From positions 1 through 30,523 of IMG/VR virus record IMGVR_UViG_2737471824_000004: DNA of 30,523 nucleotides, one strand, 5' to 3'. Every line of letters starts with the position of its first letter. Position 1 is the stretch's first letter. Below, in pieces: positions 5,117 through 23,510 of this stretch. The stretch is from a virus. Taxonomy: Duplodnaviria; Heunggongvirae; Uroviricota; Caudoviricetes. A program made the translations under genes and the position numbers. Below the pieces are notes generated by a model, which made no database searches, was not told the origin of the DNA, and saw only the letters and a list, made by a program, of their open reading frames with translations.

Positions 5117-5272
5117 TCACTCACCTGAGTTTCTTTCCAGCCAGCGACGGGCACCATTTTCGGTTTTAAACGTTTTGCTTTTGGTATACGTCATCGCGGT
5201 GAATGTGCCGTCCTGGTTGGGAAACACGCCGTACACCAGAGATTCGTTGTTGCCAAGATCGATAGTATCCAT
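5117..5272 (-). CDS. YdfA/YdaF-like small protein (51 aa)
   Basis: In-frame ATG at 5272 with GAGGT RBS (MDTIDLGNNESLVYGVFPNQDG...); first gene of the leftward early operon. Confidence 0.55.
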   Translation of the reverse strand: MDTIDLGNNESLVYGVFPNQDGTFTAMTYTKSKTFKTENGARRWLERNSGE

Positions 5273-5457
5273 GTTGACCTCATTTCCCCTTAACGCCGGG
5301 GTAGCGGAACAAGAACCTGCTGCATAGTTATTAAAGTTGAACCCTGCCGTCATGTTCTTACGCCTCGGGCTGGCTACTTAACCCCTGACCACTGCCTGGT
5401 AACTCGAAGTATTGCCCTGCGTTCTGTGGGGCGGGGTGGGGTGGTGAAATAAGGATG

Positions 5458-19943: not shown

Positions 19944-20184
19944 ATTAACTCAATTATTAGTGGGACATCTGTTACGTATAATCCGTAACAACACGGTGCA
20001 TCCTGCAATGTAGCAGGGCTGATGTGGTATGATGTAATAAGGATTTTCATCATTTTCATGAGCATCAAAAGTTAAAGGGAGCGAGCCACGGTTGACCACG
20101 CCAAAGGCTCATCGGTAAAAATCCGACACCGTGTCTTCTTAACTCACTTATTGTTTCCACCCATGTTTTTGGATACCTGCTGTA

Positions 20185-20221: not shown

Positions 20222-20513
20222 ACAACGAATCCTTCTGATCTGCTTTTGCGGGGCTTTTTTGTATCCGCTCCATGCCCGGCGTATAAGCGGAGGTTGGTCA
20301 GTTTTCTAAAAATTGAAATACCTCACAATTCAGCCAGTTAATGGTTGTTTGTCTGGCGAAGAGTTTGTAAATAAAAAAACGCATGGTGAATCCCCCTAAG
20401 CGGCGGGGCGAATCAGCAGTCAGTTCTGGGATAATCGCGGGTTTGTATGCTGATGCCGGACTCACCGGGAGGCACCCGGCACCATGCATCATGGTCATCC
20501 CCTTGTATGATAC

Positions 20514-20568
20514 CCCTCTCCGGAGGGGTATTTTTTGGATAAAAAAGCCCGCGCTGGGAGGCACGGGC
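20514..20568. terminator. back-to-back terminator-like hairpins (plus: CCCCTC-TCCG-GAGGGG plus T6 at 20514..20537; minus: hairpin 20547..20568 with T6 on the minus strand)
   Basis: Direct reading. Confidence 0.4.
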
Positions 20569-20969
20569 GGCAAGGAATAAAACGTGAAGAAATTTTCACA
20601 GGCGCATAATAATCCGATGTTGCCAGATTTTGCAACTGCAGCATCTGGTTATTATGTGAGCTGGAAAATCAGATTCTGTATGGACTGAAGCCATGCTGTT
20701 ATTTAGGGCCAAAGAGCTGGCTTTTTCCCGCCTTCTCTCCAGTAACGATTAATGAGAAAAGAATGAAATGCTTTTCCTGGGGAGGAGGGCAGTAGAAAAA
20801 AGAACCCGCCAGCAAAAATATGGGGGATGAACAGCTTTTGCTACTCAGGTTGCTGGCGGGTATGGTTCTTCATGAAATAAGAATGTTACGCTGTATTTTT
20901 AATGAAAATGATAATCATTGTCAATTGGTTGTGCGTATTTTTTCATACATGACTGGTAAAGGTGATTCA

Positions 20970-21000
20970 GGCCATCAGAGTTTTGCTGATGGCCTTTTTT
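20970..21000 (+). terminator. intrinsic terminator immediately upstream of the holin (GGCCATCAG-AGTTTTG-CTGATGGCC plus T6)
   Basis: Direct reading. Confidence 0.55.
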
Positions 21001-21033: not shown

Positions 21034-21249
21034 ATGTATCAGATGGAAAAAATATCAACAGGCATTGCCTACGGCGCCTCCGCAGGCAGTGCTGGCTACT
21101 GGTTTTTACAATGGCTTGATCAGGTTAGTCCGTCTCAGTGGGCTGCGATTGGTGTGCTGGGGAGCCTGTTCCTGGGTTTTCTGACTTATCTGACGAATCT
21201 GTACTTCAAGATAAAAGAGGACCGTCGCAAGGCGGCGCGGGGAGAGTAA
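21034..21249 (+). CDS. class II pinholin, S21-like (71 aa) with dual-start motif MYQM
   Basis: [38 protein letters not shown]...[13 protein letters not shown] matches phage 21 S as recalled; ATGs at 21034 and 21043. Confidence 0.8.
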
Positions 21250-21253
21250 TTCA

Positions 21254-21805
21254 ATGATTAAAAGCTATGAGTTGATTGTGAAAGGAACCCGCAATTTTGA
21301 GAATAAAGTCTCGGTAATTGTAGCCTTACAGGATAAAGAACGTTTTGCCGGTGAAATTGTTGATCTGAATATCAGCATGGATCGTGTTGAAGGGGCAACG
21401 CTGGAGTTTTACGAGACAGAGGCAATCAAACAGGCAAAGATATTGTTCCGGGATATTGCTGCCGGGTTATGTGAAGGGAACGAACCGTTGCCGGGAAAGC
21501 GCCCCATAATTTTAGAGGCGCAGAATGTGTGGATAACCTACAGAGGAAAACTACCGGGAAGAATTACTGGTTCTCTGAAGACGCCACCTACGGCATTGTG
21601 GTCAGAAAAAGATGATATTGAATCGCTCATTGAAAAACTGGAGGGCAGCGTCGCTGATCTGAATAAAAAATTGTCGGTGCTGATTCCTTCTGAAGATGAA
21701 AAAAAACACCGCGATGAGCAGTTTGCGGCGTTTTACGATTATTGCATTGAAGTTACTCGCAGGAATTTTGTGAAGATTTTTGAGGAGGGTAAATCTCTTC
21801 AGTAA
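21254..21805 (+). CDS. hypothetical protein (183 aa) inserted between holin and endolysin; low GC
   Basis: ATG 21254 preceded by GGAGAG inside the holin 3' end; no recognisable family. Confidence 0.55.
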   Translation: MIKSYELIVKGTRNFENKVSVIVALQDKERFAGEIVDLNISMDRVEGATLEFYETEAIKQAKILFRDIAAGLCEGNEPLPGKRPIILEAQNVWITYRGKLPGRITGSLKTPPTALWSEKDDIESLIEKLEGSVADLNKKLSVLIPSEDEKKHRDEQFAAFYDYCIEVTRRNFVKIFEEGKSLQ

Positions 21806-22013
21806 GCTTAATGGCGGACGCTGCAATTAATTCAGGAAGGTCCACAAGGTCATCTGTCAGTGAATATGATGAAAAATCGGCGGCAGTTCTGTTAAGAAGC
21901 GCTTTAACTAATTCCTTTTCCTTCTCTGGCAACAAGTTGATTAGAGCTACGACTGCTTGCCTGAGTGCGATTAAATCAGCAAAAGTTTGTTTTGGTAGAT
22001 TTGTGTAATCCAT
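21753..22013 (-). CDS. hypothetical protein (86 aa), convergent with and overlapping 21254..21805
   Basis: ATG 22013 (MDYTNLPKQTF...) with GAGGTG RBS; 3' ends of the two genes overlap by about 53 nt. Confidence 0.45.
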   Translation of the reverse strand: MDYTNLPKQTFADLIALRQAVVALINLLPEKEKELVKALLNRTAADFSSYSLTDDLVDLPELIAASAIKLTEEIYPPQKSSQNSCE

Positions 22014-22126
22014 AGTCACCTCTGTGTTTATCAGATTGACATCCTCCTCCCGCCAGTGCCCATCACTGGCGAGGTAAGATTTAACATATCCGGGGATTTG
22101 AAGCCGATAAATCCTGATAAATACCC

Positions 22127-22660
22127 ATGAACGTAAAAATCAGATACAGCCTGTCGGCTGCTGTTCTGGCACTGATTGCCGCCAGTGCTCCTGCCCCTGA
22201 CATTCTCGATCAGTTTCTGGATGAAAAAGAGGGGAATCACACCACTGCATACCTCGATGGCTCCGGCATCTGGACCATCTGTCGGGGTGCCACGATGGTG
22301 GATGGAAAACCCGTTTTTCCCGGTATGAAACTGTCGAAGGAAAAATGCGACCAGGTTAACGCCATTGAACGTGATAAGGCGCTGGCATGGGTGGAACGTA
22401 ATATTAAAGTACCACTGACCGAACCCCAGAAAGCGGGTATCGCGTCATTTTGCCCCTATAACATTGGCCCCGGTAAGTGTTTCCCGTCAACGTTTTATAA
22501 GCGGCTTAATGCAGGTGATCGTAAAGGTGCCTGCGAGGCGATTCGCTGGTGGATTAAGGACAGGGGGCACGATTGCCGCATTCGTTCAAATAACTGTTAT
22601 GGTCAGGTTATTCGTCGTGACCAGGAAAGCGCATTAGCCTGTTGGGGGATAGAGCAGTGA
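22127..22660 (+). CDS. SAR endolysin (R21-type lysozyme, 177 aa)
   Basis: N-terminal signal-arrest-release segment ([16 protein letters not shown]) and E...D...T triad region [20 protein letters not shown]. Confidence 0.85.
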
Positions 22661-23121
22661 GAAGAGTAATCGCGATTATTTATGCTCTGGTTATCTGCAT
22701 CATCGTCTGCCTGTCATGGGCTGTTAATCATTACCGTGATAATGCCATTACCTATAAAGCCCAGCGCGATAAAAATGCCAGAGAACTGAAGCTGGCAAAC
22801 TCGACAATTACTGATATGCAGGTGCGCCAGCGTGATGTTGCTGTGCTCGATGCAAAATACACGAAGGAGTTAGCTGATGCGAAAGCTGAAAATGATGCTC
22901 TGCGTGATGATGTTGCCGCTGGTCGTCGTCGGTTGCGCATCAAAGCAGTCTGTCAGTCAGTGCGTGAAGCCACCACCGCCTCCGGCATGGATAATGCAGT
23001 CTCCCCCAGACTGGCAGACGTCGCTGAACGGGATTATTTTACCCTCAGAGAACGAGTGATGGTGATGCAGAAACAACTGGAAGGAGCGCAAGAATATATC
23101 CGTACTCAATGTCTGAAATAA
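22657..23121 (+). CDS. Rz i-spanin (154 aa)
   Basis: GTG 22657 overlapping the endolysin stop; N-terminal TM then coiled-coil ([18 protein letters not shown]...). Confidence 0.75.
22877..23059 (+). CDS. Rz1 o-spanin lipoprotein embedded in +1 frame within Rz (60 aa)
   Basis: AAGGAG RBS 7 nt upstream; lipobox LPLVVVGC; proline-rich. Confidence 0.7.
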
Positions 23122-23270: not shown

Positions 23271-23510
23271 TCATTGTCCATTAGTACGATGGTAAAAGTA
23301 ACCTGACCGGGTATTTAGTTCTTCAGTATTCCGTTGTGCTGTCTTTATTCTCTTCTCTGTTGACAGTCTTCGGCGACAGGCTTCAATGACCCATGCAGAA
23401 AAATTTCCTGATCCTTTTTCTTCAAGAGCAATATGTATCTGCTCGATCATTCGGTTTGGAAAGCGGATGTTACGGGTAGTTGTTCTGCTGGTTTTATTTT
23501 TTGATGACAT
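23271..23510 (-). CDS. hypothetical protein, possibly ribbon-helix-helix DNA-binding (79 aa)
   Basis: RNIRFPNRMIEQIHIALEE...NFSAWVIEACRRRL resembles a CopG/Arc-type strand-helix-helix; weak RBS. Confidence 0.4.
   Translation of the reverse strand: MSSKNKTSRTTTRNIRFPNRMIEQIHIALEEKGSGNFSAWVIEACRRRLSTEKRIKTAQRNTEELNTRSGYFYHRTNGQ

What the first reader, a model, noticed from the sequence alone, without database searches (positions are those of the whole stretch)
21254..22013. Low-GC convergent gene pair inserted between holin and endolysin
In S21-type lysis cassettes the endolysin normally follows the holin directly (as I recall for phage 21 and DLP12). Here two unknown genes sit between them: a 183-aa gene translationally coupled to the holin end, and an 86-aa gene on the opposite strand with its own RBS, their 3' ends overlapping by about 53 nt. 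Both are low in GC and match no family I recognise. A convergent pair expressed at lysis is a plausible place for a superinfection-exclusion, abortive-infection or lysis-timing module.
Basis: partly seen in the sequence, partly recalled or inferred. Interest (0 to 1): 0.75.

Follow-up and report, generated by a model that had tools for sequence, protein, structure and literature searches.

The report
Known YdfR gene with antisense partner
The two genes between this prophage's membrane-hole (holin) and wall-cutting (endolysin) lysis genes are real and travel together, but the larger belongs to a common, already catalogued prophage family (YdfR/DUF1327), and neither has a proven function.

Summary
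ORF A (21254-21805, +, 183 aa) and ORF B (21753-22013, -, 86 aa) converge with a 53-nt 3' overlap between an S21-type holin and a SAR (signal-anchor-release) endolysin. Their GC is about 40-43%, against 51% for the flanking lysis genes.

The novelty claim does not hold. ORF A is a YdfR/DUF1327 protein (Pfam E 5.5e-35). That family sits in this same slot in K-12 Qin (essQ-ydfR-rrrQ) and matches 2542 of 5426 complete E. coli genomes. The whole pair occurs in 273 of them and in plaque-forming phages.

New here: the unit that is conserved as a pair is ORF B plus only the C-terminal helical tail of ORF A (about residues 117-183). This two-gene convergent cassette also occurs free-standing, after the holin in E. 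coli and after the spanin in Salmonella. It keeps the same 53-59-nt overlap and a conserved hairpin plus U-run just after ORF B.

A putative minus-strand promoter next to the endolysin start is present in every related locus that carries any reverse gene (five unrelated families) and lacks its -10 element in loci without one.

Best model: a nested antisense ("noncontiguous operon") gene slot, as in phi80 Tai/Ati. Function is unproven.

The parts
20969..20995 (+). tR'-like intrinsic terminator upstream of the lysis genes (context). Late transcripts stop here unless the Q antiterminator acts.
   Evidence: A 10-bp perfect stem followed by a T-run. A Q antiterminator gene lies upstream in identical loci.
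21034..21249 (+). S21-type class II holin (pinholin) with dual start MYQM.
   Evidence: PF04971, E 1.3e-35; phrog_9876 / phrog_20 holin.
21254..21592 (+). ORF A, N-terminal DUF1327 (YdfR) core, residues 1-113.
   Evidence: PF07041, E 5.5e-35, residues 1-112. 62% identical to K-12 YdfR over residues 1-74. The homology arm shared with all YdfR loci ends at about 21588-21612.
21593..21805 (+). ORF A, C-terminal helical tail ("module C", residues 114-183), fused in frame to the core. It occurs elsewhere as a free-standing 67-73-aa gene.
   Evidence: Modular alignment. Free-standing homologues P0154, P0152 and P0162. BLASTP E 2e-4 against the Salmonella 73-aa protein. AF2 predicts long helices over residues 112-181, at low confidence.
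21699..21732 (-). Hairpin (arms 21725-21732 and 21705-21712) followed by a U-run (21699-21704), about 20 nt downstream of the ORF B stop. Probable intrinsic terminator of the ORF B transcript, embedded in ORF A codons.
   Evidence: Terminator scan hit and RNA fold. Conserved in three lineages: 99.1% of cells paired, one compensatory G-C to A-U change, and wobble pairs that work only on the minus strand, while the encoded amino acids change.
21753..22013 (-). ORF B, an 86-aa acidic (pI 4.6) three-helix protein of unknown function.
   Evidence: phrog_2572, E 3.4e-52, 86/86 positions. Homologues at 38-50% identity. AF2 gives three helices, pLDDT 72. The exact protein is on record in 785 blocks of the assembly collection.
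22017..22022 (-). Shine-Dalgarno sequence GAGGTG of ORF B.
   Evidence: Read from the sequence. TAAGGA sits at the equivalent place in the Salmonella and lineage-3 copies.
22051..22071 (.). Palindrome CGCCAGTG-N5-CACTGGCG in the predicted 5' UTR of ORF B. This is also where homology with loci carrying other reverse genes resumes.
   Evidence: Its role is unexplained.
22083..22111 (-). Putative promoter P_rev: -35 TTTATC (22106-22111), a 17-nt spacer, and -10 TATGTT (22083-22088).
   Evidence: Present in all 12 representative loci that carry a reverse ORF. The -10 is missing in all 5 loci without one. Salmonella copies have TTTATC-17-TATTGT even though no endolysin start lies next to it. It matches only 7 of 12 consensus positions and was not called by the scan.
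22127..22660 (+). SAR-type endolysin (R21-like).
   Evidence: PF00959, E 1.2e-23. Its N-terminus is [24 protein letters not shown].
22657..23121 (+). Rz i-spanin, with Rz1 embedded at 22877-23059.
   Evidence: PF03245, E 6.2e-52. The Rz1-like lipoprotein ORF is listed.

Best explanation
**Shown.** The locus is the variable "S-R slot" of an S21-type lysis cassette in a lambdoid E. coli prophage.
- ORF A is a gene fusion. It joins a YdfR/DUF1327 core, which regularly sits 4 nt behind the S21 holin, to a 70-aa helical tail.
- That tail and the convergent ORF B form a separately mobile two-gene cassette. The cassette also occurs free-standing behind the holin in E. coli and behind the spanin in Salmonella. 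It always keeps a 53-59-nt 3' overlap and a conserved hairpin plus U-run just after ORF B.

**Inferred mechanism.** The slot works as a noncontiguous operon.
- In the lysogen, late transcription stops at tR' (20969-20995). The weak minus-strand promoter next to the endolysin start (22083-22111) then expresses ORF B, and its transcript ends at the hairpin inside ORF A.
- After induction, Q-antiterminated late transcription reads through S, ORF A, R and Rz. This opposes ORF B expression by convergent transcription and RNA overlap, and it produces the tail module.
- The strict linkage of the tail with ORF B suggests that the tail is ORF B's cognate protein partner, most likely an antagonist. The logic is the same as for phi80 Tai/Ati.
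- The DUF1327 core probably acts separately. Its K-12 orthologue binds the catalytic half of RNase E.

**Unknown.** What ORF B does in the lysogen is not known.
For: **Family and position.** ORF A matches PF07041, and both ORFs match PHROG families at full length. A YdfR gene lies directly after the holin in all 80 viral loci, in K-12 Qin and in identical E. coli contexts.

**Modularity.** Tails of YdfR-family proteins give total lengths of 114 to 330 aa on a constant core. Recombination breakpoints fall at about 21588-21612 and 22051.

**Cassette conservation.**
- Free-standing tail genes P0154 (67 aa, with its own N-terminus) and P0152/P0162 (73 aa) are convergent with 86/93-aa ORF B homologues.
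- A third lineage has diverged copies of both the tail and ORF B.
- ORF B and the tail end co-occur in 84 loci, against 4 exceptions.

**ORF B is coding.** The divergent homologues stay open in frame, while the shadow frame is broken in Salmonella. Amino-acid replacements are milder in the ORF B frame: BLOSUM sum -1, against -14 in the shadow frame.

**Terminator.**

**Promoter correlation with reverse cargo.**

**Precedents.**
- Reverse immune gene plus forward late inhibitor inside the Q operon: phi80 tai/ati (PMC11364771).
- 80alpha tha/ith (PMC11087260).

**RNase E binding.** Residues 1-72 of K-12 YdfR bind RNase E (PMC13232886). ORF A is 62% identical over that stretch.
Against: - No transcript, translation or phenotype data exist for this locus.
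- P_rev matches only 7 of 12 consensus positions, and the promoter scan did not call it. Its -35 overlaps the conserved upstream region of the endolysin, so part of its conservation has another cause. Its link with reverse cargo could also reflect shared deletions.
- Hairpin covariation is thin: one compensatory pair, and 29 of 500 shuffles do as well. The lineage-3 U-run is poor.
- Linkage of the tail end with ORF B is partly forced, because the two physically overlap. The front half of the tail also occurs without ORF B, in the 296-329-aa forms.
- Both the tail and ORF B are acidic (pI 4.8 and 4.6). I could not test whether they bind each other.
- The tail is made late, together with the lysis proteins. 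It could therefore relieve only a block on late events.
- There is no sequence or fold similarity to Tai/Ati, Tha/Ith or any defence family.
Confidence: 0.5

Rival explanations
1. Anti-phage defence or superinfection exclusion. ORF B, alone or with ORF A, protects the lysogen against other phages. The tail of ORF A serves only to prevent self-targeting.
For: - The slot holds interchangeable reverse cargo of five unrelated families behind one conserved promoter-like element. This is typical of prophage accessory or immunity hot spots.
- GC is low.
- Architecture precedents come from validated immune genes (PMC11364771, PMC11087260).
- The Salmonella copy sits in the "upstream of the packaging module" locus, where Tai genes are predominantly found.
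- PADLOC v2 also misses the validated TaiEcA protein, so the lack of a PADLOC hit carries little weight.
Against: - No hit in PADLOC, Pfam or NCBIfam.
- ORF B is an 86-aa helical protein with no enzymatic or sensor domain.
- No experimental data exist.
- Other cargo types (c, d) have no dedicated forward partner.
Confidence: 0.2
2. Lysis-timing module. The tail and/or ORF B are cytoplasmic regulators of the holin, endolysin or spanin, comparable in role to T4 RIII or P1 LydB (from my own knowledge of those systems).
For: - The cassette is found only inside lysis cassettes, of three different compositions.
- It is always tightly coupled to the preceding lysis gene: 4 nt after the S21 holin, or an ATGA overlap with the DUF2514 spanin.
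Against: - Neither protein has a transmembrane segment or signal.
- S21 already encodes its own antiholin through the dual start.
- Many related cassettes lack the cassette or carry only the DUF1327 core. K-12 Qin and the 114/116-aa forms are examples, so it is dispensable.
- It accompanies unrelated holin and endolysin types, which argues against a specific lysis-protein target.
Confidence: 0.15
3. Two unrelated passengers. ORF A is simply a long YdfR variant acting on RNase E or RNA decay late in infection. ORF B is an independent lysogenic-conversion gene (a moron, like lambda bor). Their overlap reflects tight packing, not a functional link.
For: - K-12 YdfR binds the N-terminal half of RNase E and co-purifies with RNA (PMC13232886).
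- The tail's front half occurs without ORF B.
- Other reverse cargo types need no special tail.
- In degraded Salmonella prophages, ORF B has lost its start while the 73-aa tail gene is intact.
Against: - The free-standing tail gene and ORF B stay together in three lineages and three genomic contexts. They have diverged in parallel (ORF B 38-50% identity, tail about 22-40%) and keep the same overlap geometry.
Confidence: 0.12
4. ORF B is not a gene. It is an antisense shadow ORF of non-coding 3' sequence, kept open by chance or by the codon usage of the other strand.
For: - ORF B and the + strand 65-aa ORF share third codon positions, so codon periodicity cannot separate them.
- Only 14 of 29 variable sites in the non-overlap part of ORF B fall at its third positions.
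- PGAP leaves the tail of ORF A unannotated in strain R1.
Against: - Homologues at 38-50% identity keep the frame open and share 27 invariant residues.
- The + strand shadow frame is broken in Salmonella.
- ORF B has a good ribosome-binding site in all lineages.
- Its BLOSUM sum is better than that of the shadow frame.
- It matches a PHROG along its full length.
- AF2 predicts three helices at pLDDT 72 from a shallow alignment.
Confidence: 0.03

Closest known systems
YdfR of E. coli K-12 cryptic prophage Qin (Pfam PF07041, DUF1327)
   Same: - ORF A residues 1-112 match the family model (E 5.5e-35) and are 62% identical to K-12 YdfR over residues 1-74.
- The position is the same: directly after an S21-type holin (essQ) and before the lysozyme (rrrQ).
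- NCBI already names close copies "YdfR family protein".
   Different: - K-12 YdfR is 103 aa, its stop overlaps the rrrQ start, and no reverse gene follows it.
- ORF A carries an extra 70-aa helical tail that exists elsewhere as a separate gene, and a convergent partner follows it.
phi80 Tai/Ati (orf63/orf64) noncontiguous operon (PMC11364771)
   Same: - It is a lambdoid coliphage.
- A gene in reverse orientation is nested in the Q-dependent late operon and expressed in the lysogen.
- An adjacent small forward late gene encodes its cognate inhibitor, which binds it.
- It lies at the lysis end of the late operon. The Salmonella copy of the present cassette sits in the same place, after the spanin and before the packaging genes.
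   Different: - There is no sequence similarity: TaiEcA is 204 aa, and BLASTP against ORF B gives E 0.15. AtiEcA is a beta-rich 76-aa protein, unlike the helical tail.
- tai and ati overlap at their 5' ends (divergent). Here the 3' ends overlap (convergent).
- No immune activity has been shown for ORF B.
80alpha Tha/Ith antisense unit in Staphylococcus aureus prophages (PMC11087260)
   Same: - A small gene overlaps antisense inside an operon.
- Expression of the two partners is mutually exclusive between lysogeny and the lytic cycle.
- The partner protein inhibits the effector.
   Different: - The polarity is opposite: there the effector sits in the lysogenic cI operon and the small antisense gene is the inhibitor.
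- The host is Gram-positive.
- Tha is a HEPN protein, and no such domain is present here.
Classical lambdoid morons such as lambda bor (from my own knowledge of Hendrix-type morons)
   Same: - Reverse orientation within or next to the late operon.
- Its own terminator.
- Lower GC than the neighbouring genes.
- The flanking genes are adjacent in relatives.
   Different: - bor is a lipoprotein located after Rz.
- ORF B is cytoplasmic, sits between S and R, and is tied to a forward partner gene.

Membership tests
Pfam PF07041 DUF1327 / NCBI 'YdfR family protein' | Match to the family profile above the curated gathering score | tested here: met
   119.9 bits against a cut-off of 25, E 5.5e-35, covering residues 1-112 of ORF A and positions 1-92 of the 93-position profile.
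Pfam PF07041 DUF1327 / NCBI 'YdfR family protein' | Genomic position directly downstream of a phage-21-type holin and upstream of the lysozyme | tested here: met
   The window itself, K-12 Qin essQ-ydfR-rrrQ, and nearly all of the 80 related viral loci (the holin went undetected in one locus and lay about 135 nt away in two).
Pfam PF07041 DUF1327 / NCBI 'YdfR family protein' | Binding of the N-terminal catalytic half of RNase E through residues 1-72. This is reported for K-12 YdfR only (PMC13232886). | not testable with these tools
   Only sequence identity is available: 62% over residues 1-74. This is a property of one family member, not an established family trait.
PHROG 2572 (ORF B) | Full-length profile match | tested here: met
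   E 3.4e-52, residues 1-86 on profile positions 1-86 of 86. The family's function is listed as unknown.
Pfam PF08853 DUF1823 (the label given to the ORF B homologue in the PhiR12 phage records) | Match above the gathering score | tested here: not met
   13.8 bits against a cut-off of 25, E 0.07. The divergent homologues do not hit it either.
S21-type (pinholin / SAR endolysin) lysis cassette | PF04971 holin with a dual start, a lysozyme with an N-terminal signal-anchor-release segment, and Rz with embedded Rz1 | tested here: met
   I judged the SAR segment from the sequence ([24 protein letters not shown]), not with a predictor.
Moron (autonomous accessory transcription unit in a phage late region) | The flanking genes are adjacent in related phages | tested here: met
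   In K-12 Qin the ydfR stop overlaps the rrrQ start. In loci L120-L123 the endolysin follows the 116-aa YdfR after 63 nt.
Moron (autonomous accessory transcription unit in a phage late region) | Deviant base composition | tested here: met
   The tail plus ORF B is about 40% GC, against 51% for the holin and endolysin.
Moron (autonomous accessory transcription unit in a phage late region) | Own terminator | tested here: met
   In silico only. A hairpin plus U-run lies about 20 nt after the ORF B stop and is conserved in three lineages, with one compensatory change and strand-specific wobble changes.
Moron (autonomous accessory transcription unit in a phage late region) | Own promoter | tested here: inconclusive
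   TTTATC-17-TATGTT matches only 7 of 12 consensus positions and was not called by the scan. It is nevertheless conserved and correlates perfectly with the presence of reverse cargo in 17 representative loci, and it is retained in Salmonella.
Noncontiguous operon (Saenz-Lahoya 2019; Tha/Ith; Tai/Ati) | A gene in opposite orientation nested inside an operon | tested here: met
   ORF B lies between S/ORF A and R/Rz of the late operon.
Noncontiguous operon (Saenz-Lahoya 2019; Tha/Ith; Tai/Ati) | Overlapping transcripts with reciprocal regulation | not testable with these tools
   This needs strand-specific RNA-seq or reporter assays, with and without induction or Q expression.
Tai/Ati tail-assembly-inhibition system | Sequence homology to TaiEcA or AtiEcA | tested here: not met
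   BLASTP of ORF B against TaiEcA gives E 0.15 over 15 residues. The AtiEcA sequence is unrelated to the tail by inspection.
Known anti-phage defence systems (PADLOC-DB v2.0.0) | A profile match for any component | tested here: not met
   ORF A and ORF B give 0 families at E up to 1. The Salmonella homologues and the other cargo types give only chance-level hits. Caveat: the validated TaiEcA protein is also missed.

The most novel reading that the evidence does not exclude
ORF B and the tail module form a new two-protein immunity switch.
- ORF B is a lysogen-expressed small binder that blocks a late step (assembly, packaging or lysis) of incoming lambdoid phages.
- The late-expressed tail, fused here to YdfR, is its cognate antidote and spares the resident phage.
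- More broadly, the S-R junction of S21 cassettes would be an unrecognised hot spot that swaps at least five such reverse cargo genes behind one fixed promoter.
Probability: 0.2. Interest if true: 0.7.

Novelty: new member of a known kind. Interest (0 to 1): 0.38.

Why it matters
YdfR-family genes match about half of complete E. coli genomes, and no function has been assigned to them.

If the tail module and ORF B are a cognate pair in a nested antisense arrangement, the S-R junction would be a second lambdoid slot, besides the one upstream of the packaging genes, where prophages keep lysogen-expressed accessory genes and switch them off during their own lytic growth. That would give a simple handle for finding small, domain-less immunity or regulatory proteins that profile-based defence finders miss.

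It also corrects annotation. The 183-codon gene is intact, not a truncated pseudogene as PGAP labels it, and "DUF1823" is not a supported label for ORF B.

If there is no phenotype, the locus is only another mosaic moron site.

Tried and rejected
- **Codon-position periodicity for ORF B.** This was uninformative. ORF B and the + strand shadow ORF share third positions. I relied on divergent homologues and the broken shadow frame instead.
- **Homology among the four small reverse-ORF families (B, b, c, d).** BLASTP and hhalign found none. They are separate PHROGs.
- **PDB sequence searches.** Only chance-level hits appeared, such as AcrIIC4 at E 0.3.
- **PADLOC, NCBIfam and Pfam for both proteins, their homologues and other cargo.** Nothing beyond DUF1327.
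- **GTDB representative-genome scan for ORF B.** It returned one E. coli locus only.
- **Salmonella cassette against phage records.** No match.
- **Sigma-70 scan.** No minus-strand promoter was called upstream of ORF B, in E. coli or in Salmonella.
- **The 233-aa reverse cargo of locus L119 as a possible Tai homologue.** Rejected. It matches only hypothetical proteins of Stx-converting phages, not phi80.
- **Literature searches** for DUF1327, ydfR, lysis-cassette morons and the PhiR12 phages. These found only the RNase E interaction study and the two noncontiguous-operon papers.
- **Structure prediction of the tail-ORF B complex.** Not possible with the tools and caps available.
Full report
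**1.
- The window holds ORF A at 21254-21805 (+, 183 aa) and ORF B at 21753-22013 (-, 86 aa; 88 aa from a GTG at 22019). Their 3' ends overlap by exactly 53 nt.
- ORF A starts 4 nt after the stop of a 71-aa phage-21-type holin (PF04971, E 1.3e-35, dual start MYQM).
- ORF B's start lies 113 nt before a lysozyme (PF00959) that has a SAR-like N-terminus. Rz and Rz1 follow.
- ORF B has the Shine-Dalgarno sequence GAGGTG 3 nt upstream of its ATG.
- ORF A is 42.9% GC, its last 70 codons 39.9%, and ORF B 40.2%. The two flanking lysis genes are 51% and the window is 48.6%.

**2. ORF A belongs to a known family that is common in this position.**
- Residues 1-112 match Pfam DUF1327 (PF07041) at 119.9 bits, E 5.5e-35. 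The whole protein matches phrog_2091, and ORF B matches phrog_2572 end to end. Both PHROGs are of unknown function.
- The type member is YdfR of the K-12 cryptic prophage Qin, where the gene order is essQ-ydfR-rrrQ-rzpQ. ORF A is 62% identical to it over residues 1-74.
- A megablast of the finding's 766 nt hits 2542 of 5426 complete E. coli genomes, mostly through the DUF1327 core. It hits 273 genomes over at least 80% of its length. The hits are annotated "YdfR family protein | hypothetical protein".
- The same pair is present in the phages 2H10, PhiR63_1, PhiR12_x and PhiR5_1. Several of these records list laboratory strains (K-12 MG1655, E. coli C) as host.
- The exact ORF B protein is on record in 785 blocks of the public assembly collection, always in the same context: Q antiterminator, methyltransferase, holin, DUF1327 gene, ORF B, lysozyme, Rz.

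**3. The family is modular, and the slot is mosaic.**
- In nearly all of the 80 related viral contigs, the DUF1327 core sits 4 nt after the holin. In one the holin was not detected, and in two it lies about 135 nt away. The protein's total length runs 114, 116, 169, 171, 176, 183, 211, 268, 296 and 325-330 aa, and the distance from the gene's start to the endolysin start runs from 414 to 1442 nt.
- Homology with the window breaks at about 21588-21612 (in some loci 21668 or 21745). It resumes at about 22051, or at 22083, 22100 or 22121.
- Behind the YdfR gene I found small minus-strand ORFs of at least five kinds:
  - ORF B;
  - an 87-91-aa family (phrog_18136);
  - a 104-aa family (phrog_1853; orf6 of Stx2-converting phage 86);
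  - a 90-aa family (phrog_2411);
  - a 210-233-aa ORF that also occurs in Stx-converting phages.
- These families show no mutual similarity by BLASTP or hhalign. Other loci have no reverse gene at all.

**4. The conserved pair is the tail of ORF A plus ORF B.**
- A profile search of 1.84 billion representative proteins found ORF B relatives at 40-45% identity, P0139 and P0140.
- Their contigs show the same convergent geometry with a different forward partner.
  - *Salmonella.* The cassette is holin_8 / holin_3_7 / GH19 endolysin / DUF2514 spanin, then a 73-aa gene whose start overlaps the spanin stop. That gene is convergent with the 93-aa ORF B homologue with a 59-nt overlap, and the small terminase gene follows.
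  - *The 73-aa protein.* It aligns with ORF A residues 149-183 (BLASTP E 2e-4) and, in a multiple alignment, with residues 117-183.
  - *E. coli.* A free-standing 67-aa version with its own N-terminus (MNPEEMNRR...; P0154, 393 contigs) sits directly behind the S21 holin, with no DUF1327 domain. It is convergent with an 86-aa ORF B with a 53-nt overlap.
  - *A third lineage.* It has a DUF1327 core, a different middle section, a diverged tail (...NERQRHHENGVAFVAKAVQQTIDGMTTKFLQELKLSQQE) and a 93-aa ORF B homologue at 38% identity, again with a 59-nt overlap.
- Over all loci held, ORF B and the tail end co-occur in 84. The tail end lacks an intact ORF B in 3, and in 1 the tail is too diverged to detect. 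The loci are not independent of one another.
- Caveats:
  - The last 17-19 codons of the two genes overlap physically, so part of this linkage is forced.
  - The front half of the tail also occurs without ORF B, in the 296-330-aa forms.

**5. ORF B is a real coding frame.**
- The + strand carries a 65-aa ORF (21811-22008) whose third codon positions coincide with those of ORF B, so periodicity cannot discriminate between the frames. Variable sites fall 7: 8: 14 by codon position.
- Three observations decide for ORF B:
  - The divergent homologues keep the ORF B frame open and share 27 invariant residues.
  - The + strand shadow frame is broken in the Salmonella loci, where the longest piece is 28 aa.
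  - Replacements are milder in the ORF B frame: BLOSUM62 sum -1, against -14.
- AlphaFold2 predicts three helices (residues 8-27, 30-48, 59-74) at mean pLDDT 72 from a shallow alignment.
- ORF B is acidic (pI 4.6), with no hydrophobic segment long enough to span a membrane.

**6. ORF B shows signs of being its own transcription unit.**
- *Terminator-like hairpin.* About 20 nt after the ORF B stop, the minus strand forms a hairpin followed by uridines: AAAACGCCGC-N12-GCGGUGUUUU, then UUUUC (21699-21732).
- *Conservation of the hairpin.* It is present in all three lineages, although the flanks and the loop have diverged. Over 14 distinct sequences, 99.1% of cells pair. One pair changes G-C to A-U on both sides. 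Two pairs change to G-U or U-G, which pair only in the minus-strand RNA. 29 of 500 column shuffles do as well, so the statistics are modest.
- *Coding versus structure.* In lineage 3 the amino acids encoded on the + strand change (RRD..AA to RHH..GVA) while the stem is kept. This points to selection on the RNA structure.
- *Promoter-like element.* Upstream of ORF B lies TTTATC (22106-22111), a 17-nt spacer, then TATGTT (22083-22088). It matches only 7 of 12 consensus positions, and the scan did not call it.
- *Correlation with reverse cargo.* The element is present in all 12 representative loci with any reverse ORF, whatever the cargo. Its -10 is absent from all 5 loci without one.
- *Retention in Salmonella.* The Salmonella cassettes keep TTTATC-17-TATTGT, within a roughly 26-nt stretch that resembles the E. 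coli endolysin start region, although no endolysin gene adjoins it there.
- I regard the promoter as probable, not shown.

**7. Clues to function are thin.**
- *Published data.* The only experimental data on the family concern K-12 YdfR. [quoted passage not shown] The protein co-purifies with RNase E(1-598) and with RNA. Overproduction changes few transcripts (PMC13232886).
- *ORF B structure.* It gives only generic helical matches.
- *Database searches.* PADLOC, NCBIfam and PDB sequence searches are negative. PADLOC v2 also fails to detect the validated TaiEcA protein, so that negative result is weak.

**8. The closest known systems resemble this one by architecture, not by sequence.**
- *phi80.* The immune gene tai (orf63, 204 aa) lies in reverse orientation inside the Q-dependent late operon and is expressed in the lysogen. 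The adjacent forward gene ati (orf64, 76 aa) is expressed late and neutralises its cognate Tai; binding was shown for a Salmonella pair. The authors call this a noncontiguous operon. They note that Tai genes mostly sit upstream of the packaging module (PMC11364771). That is where the Salmonella copy of the present cassette lies.
- *S. aureus 80alpha.* Tha/Ith follows the same logic with opposite polarity (PMC11087260).
- *The present locus.* The geometry fits this logic: ORF B is reverse and probably lysogenic, and the tail is forward, late and strictly linked to it. However, TaiEcA and AtiEcA show no similarity to ORF B or the tail. The overlap here is 3'-3' rather than 5'-5'.

**9. Verdict.**
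- The feature is real but largely ordinary. It is a YdfR-family gene in its usual place, here fused to one half of a small convergent two-gene cassette that occupies a mosaic accessory slot of the lysis operon.
- What I did not find described in the literature I searched:
  - the cassette as a conserved unit;
  - its free-standing forms;
  - the conserved hairpin;
  - the promoter-like element shared by interchangeable reverse cargo.
- My best model is a noncontiguous operon that separates ORF B (lysogeny) from its probable partner, the tail (late). I give the whole model about 0.5. The anatomy is much more certain than that, and the protein-protein antagonism much less.
- Defence or superinfection exclusion (0.2) and lysis timing (0.15) remain open, and are not exclusive of this architecture.
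- Interest is moderate to low. It would rise if ORF B shows a phenotype.

Noticed in passing
window 20352-20540 (+), and 19956-20174 (+): A strong Rfam match to the sRNA family STnc100 (113.9 bits against a gathering score of 47). A weak second copy scores 29.3 bits. Both lie between the DNA methyltransferase gene and the late promoter region.
   Followed up: no
window 20969-20995 (+): A tR'-like terminator (10-bp stem plus T-run) just upstream of the holin. The sub-threshold SgrS hit at 20904-21000 probably reflects only this hairpin.
   Followed up: partly
window 23271-23510 (-): A second reverse-oriented small gene: 79 aa, PF13132 DUF3950, YlcI/YnfO family. It lies between Rz and the small terminase gene. 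This is the "upstream of the packaging module" slot where phi80 carries tai/ati.
   Followed up: partly
L003 3001-3342 (E. coli R1, D0T88_RS25635), equivalent to window 21254-21595: PGAP annotates ORF A as a pseudogene ("incomplete; missing C-terminus"), although the 183-codon frame is intact. The likely reason is that the tail lies outside the YdfR model and overlaps ORF B.
   Followed up: yes
window 22051-22071, and 22180-22187: The palindrome CGCCAGTG-N5-CACTGGCG sits in the predicted 5' UTR of the reverse gene in loci of cargo types B, b, c and e, with small variations. One arm recurs inside the endolysin gene. Whether it acts as an RNA hairpin or a protein-binding site is unknown.
   Followed up: partly
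window 22024-22034 and 22114-22124: An 11-nt inverted repeat (91% complementary). In the late mRNA it could pair the antisense of ORF B's ribosome-binding region with the sequence just before the endolysin ATG. That ATG has no obvious Shine-Dalgarno sequence. The fold z-score is only -2.0.
   Followed up: no
L105, L113, L114, L119 (relative to the YdfR start: 311-583, 464-739, 817-1131, 544-1245, all minus strand): Four further unrelated reverse genes occupy the same S-R slot behind the same promoter-like element: phrog_2411, phrog_18136, phrog_1853 and a 210-233-aa ORF. The last is 100% identical in Stx1a- and Stx2a-converting phages.
   Followed up: partly
proteins P0141, P0143, P0145: The ORF B profile collects large TPR-repeat proteins through many weak repeated stretches (for example LTDLAEAISAQQKAVNLTPEGH against FADLIALRQAVVALINLLPEKE). 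Helices 1-2 of ORF B may therefore resemble a single TPR-like hairpin.
   Followed up: no
L141-L143, positions 5167-5400: In degraded Salmonella prophages the ORF B homologue has lost its first 15 codons, while the 73-aa forward partner is intact.
   Followed up: partly
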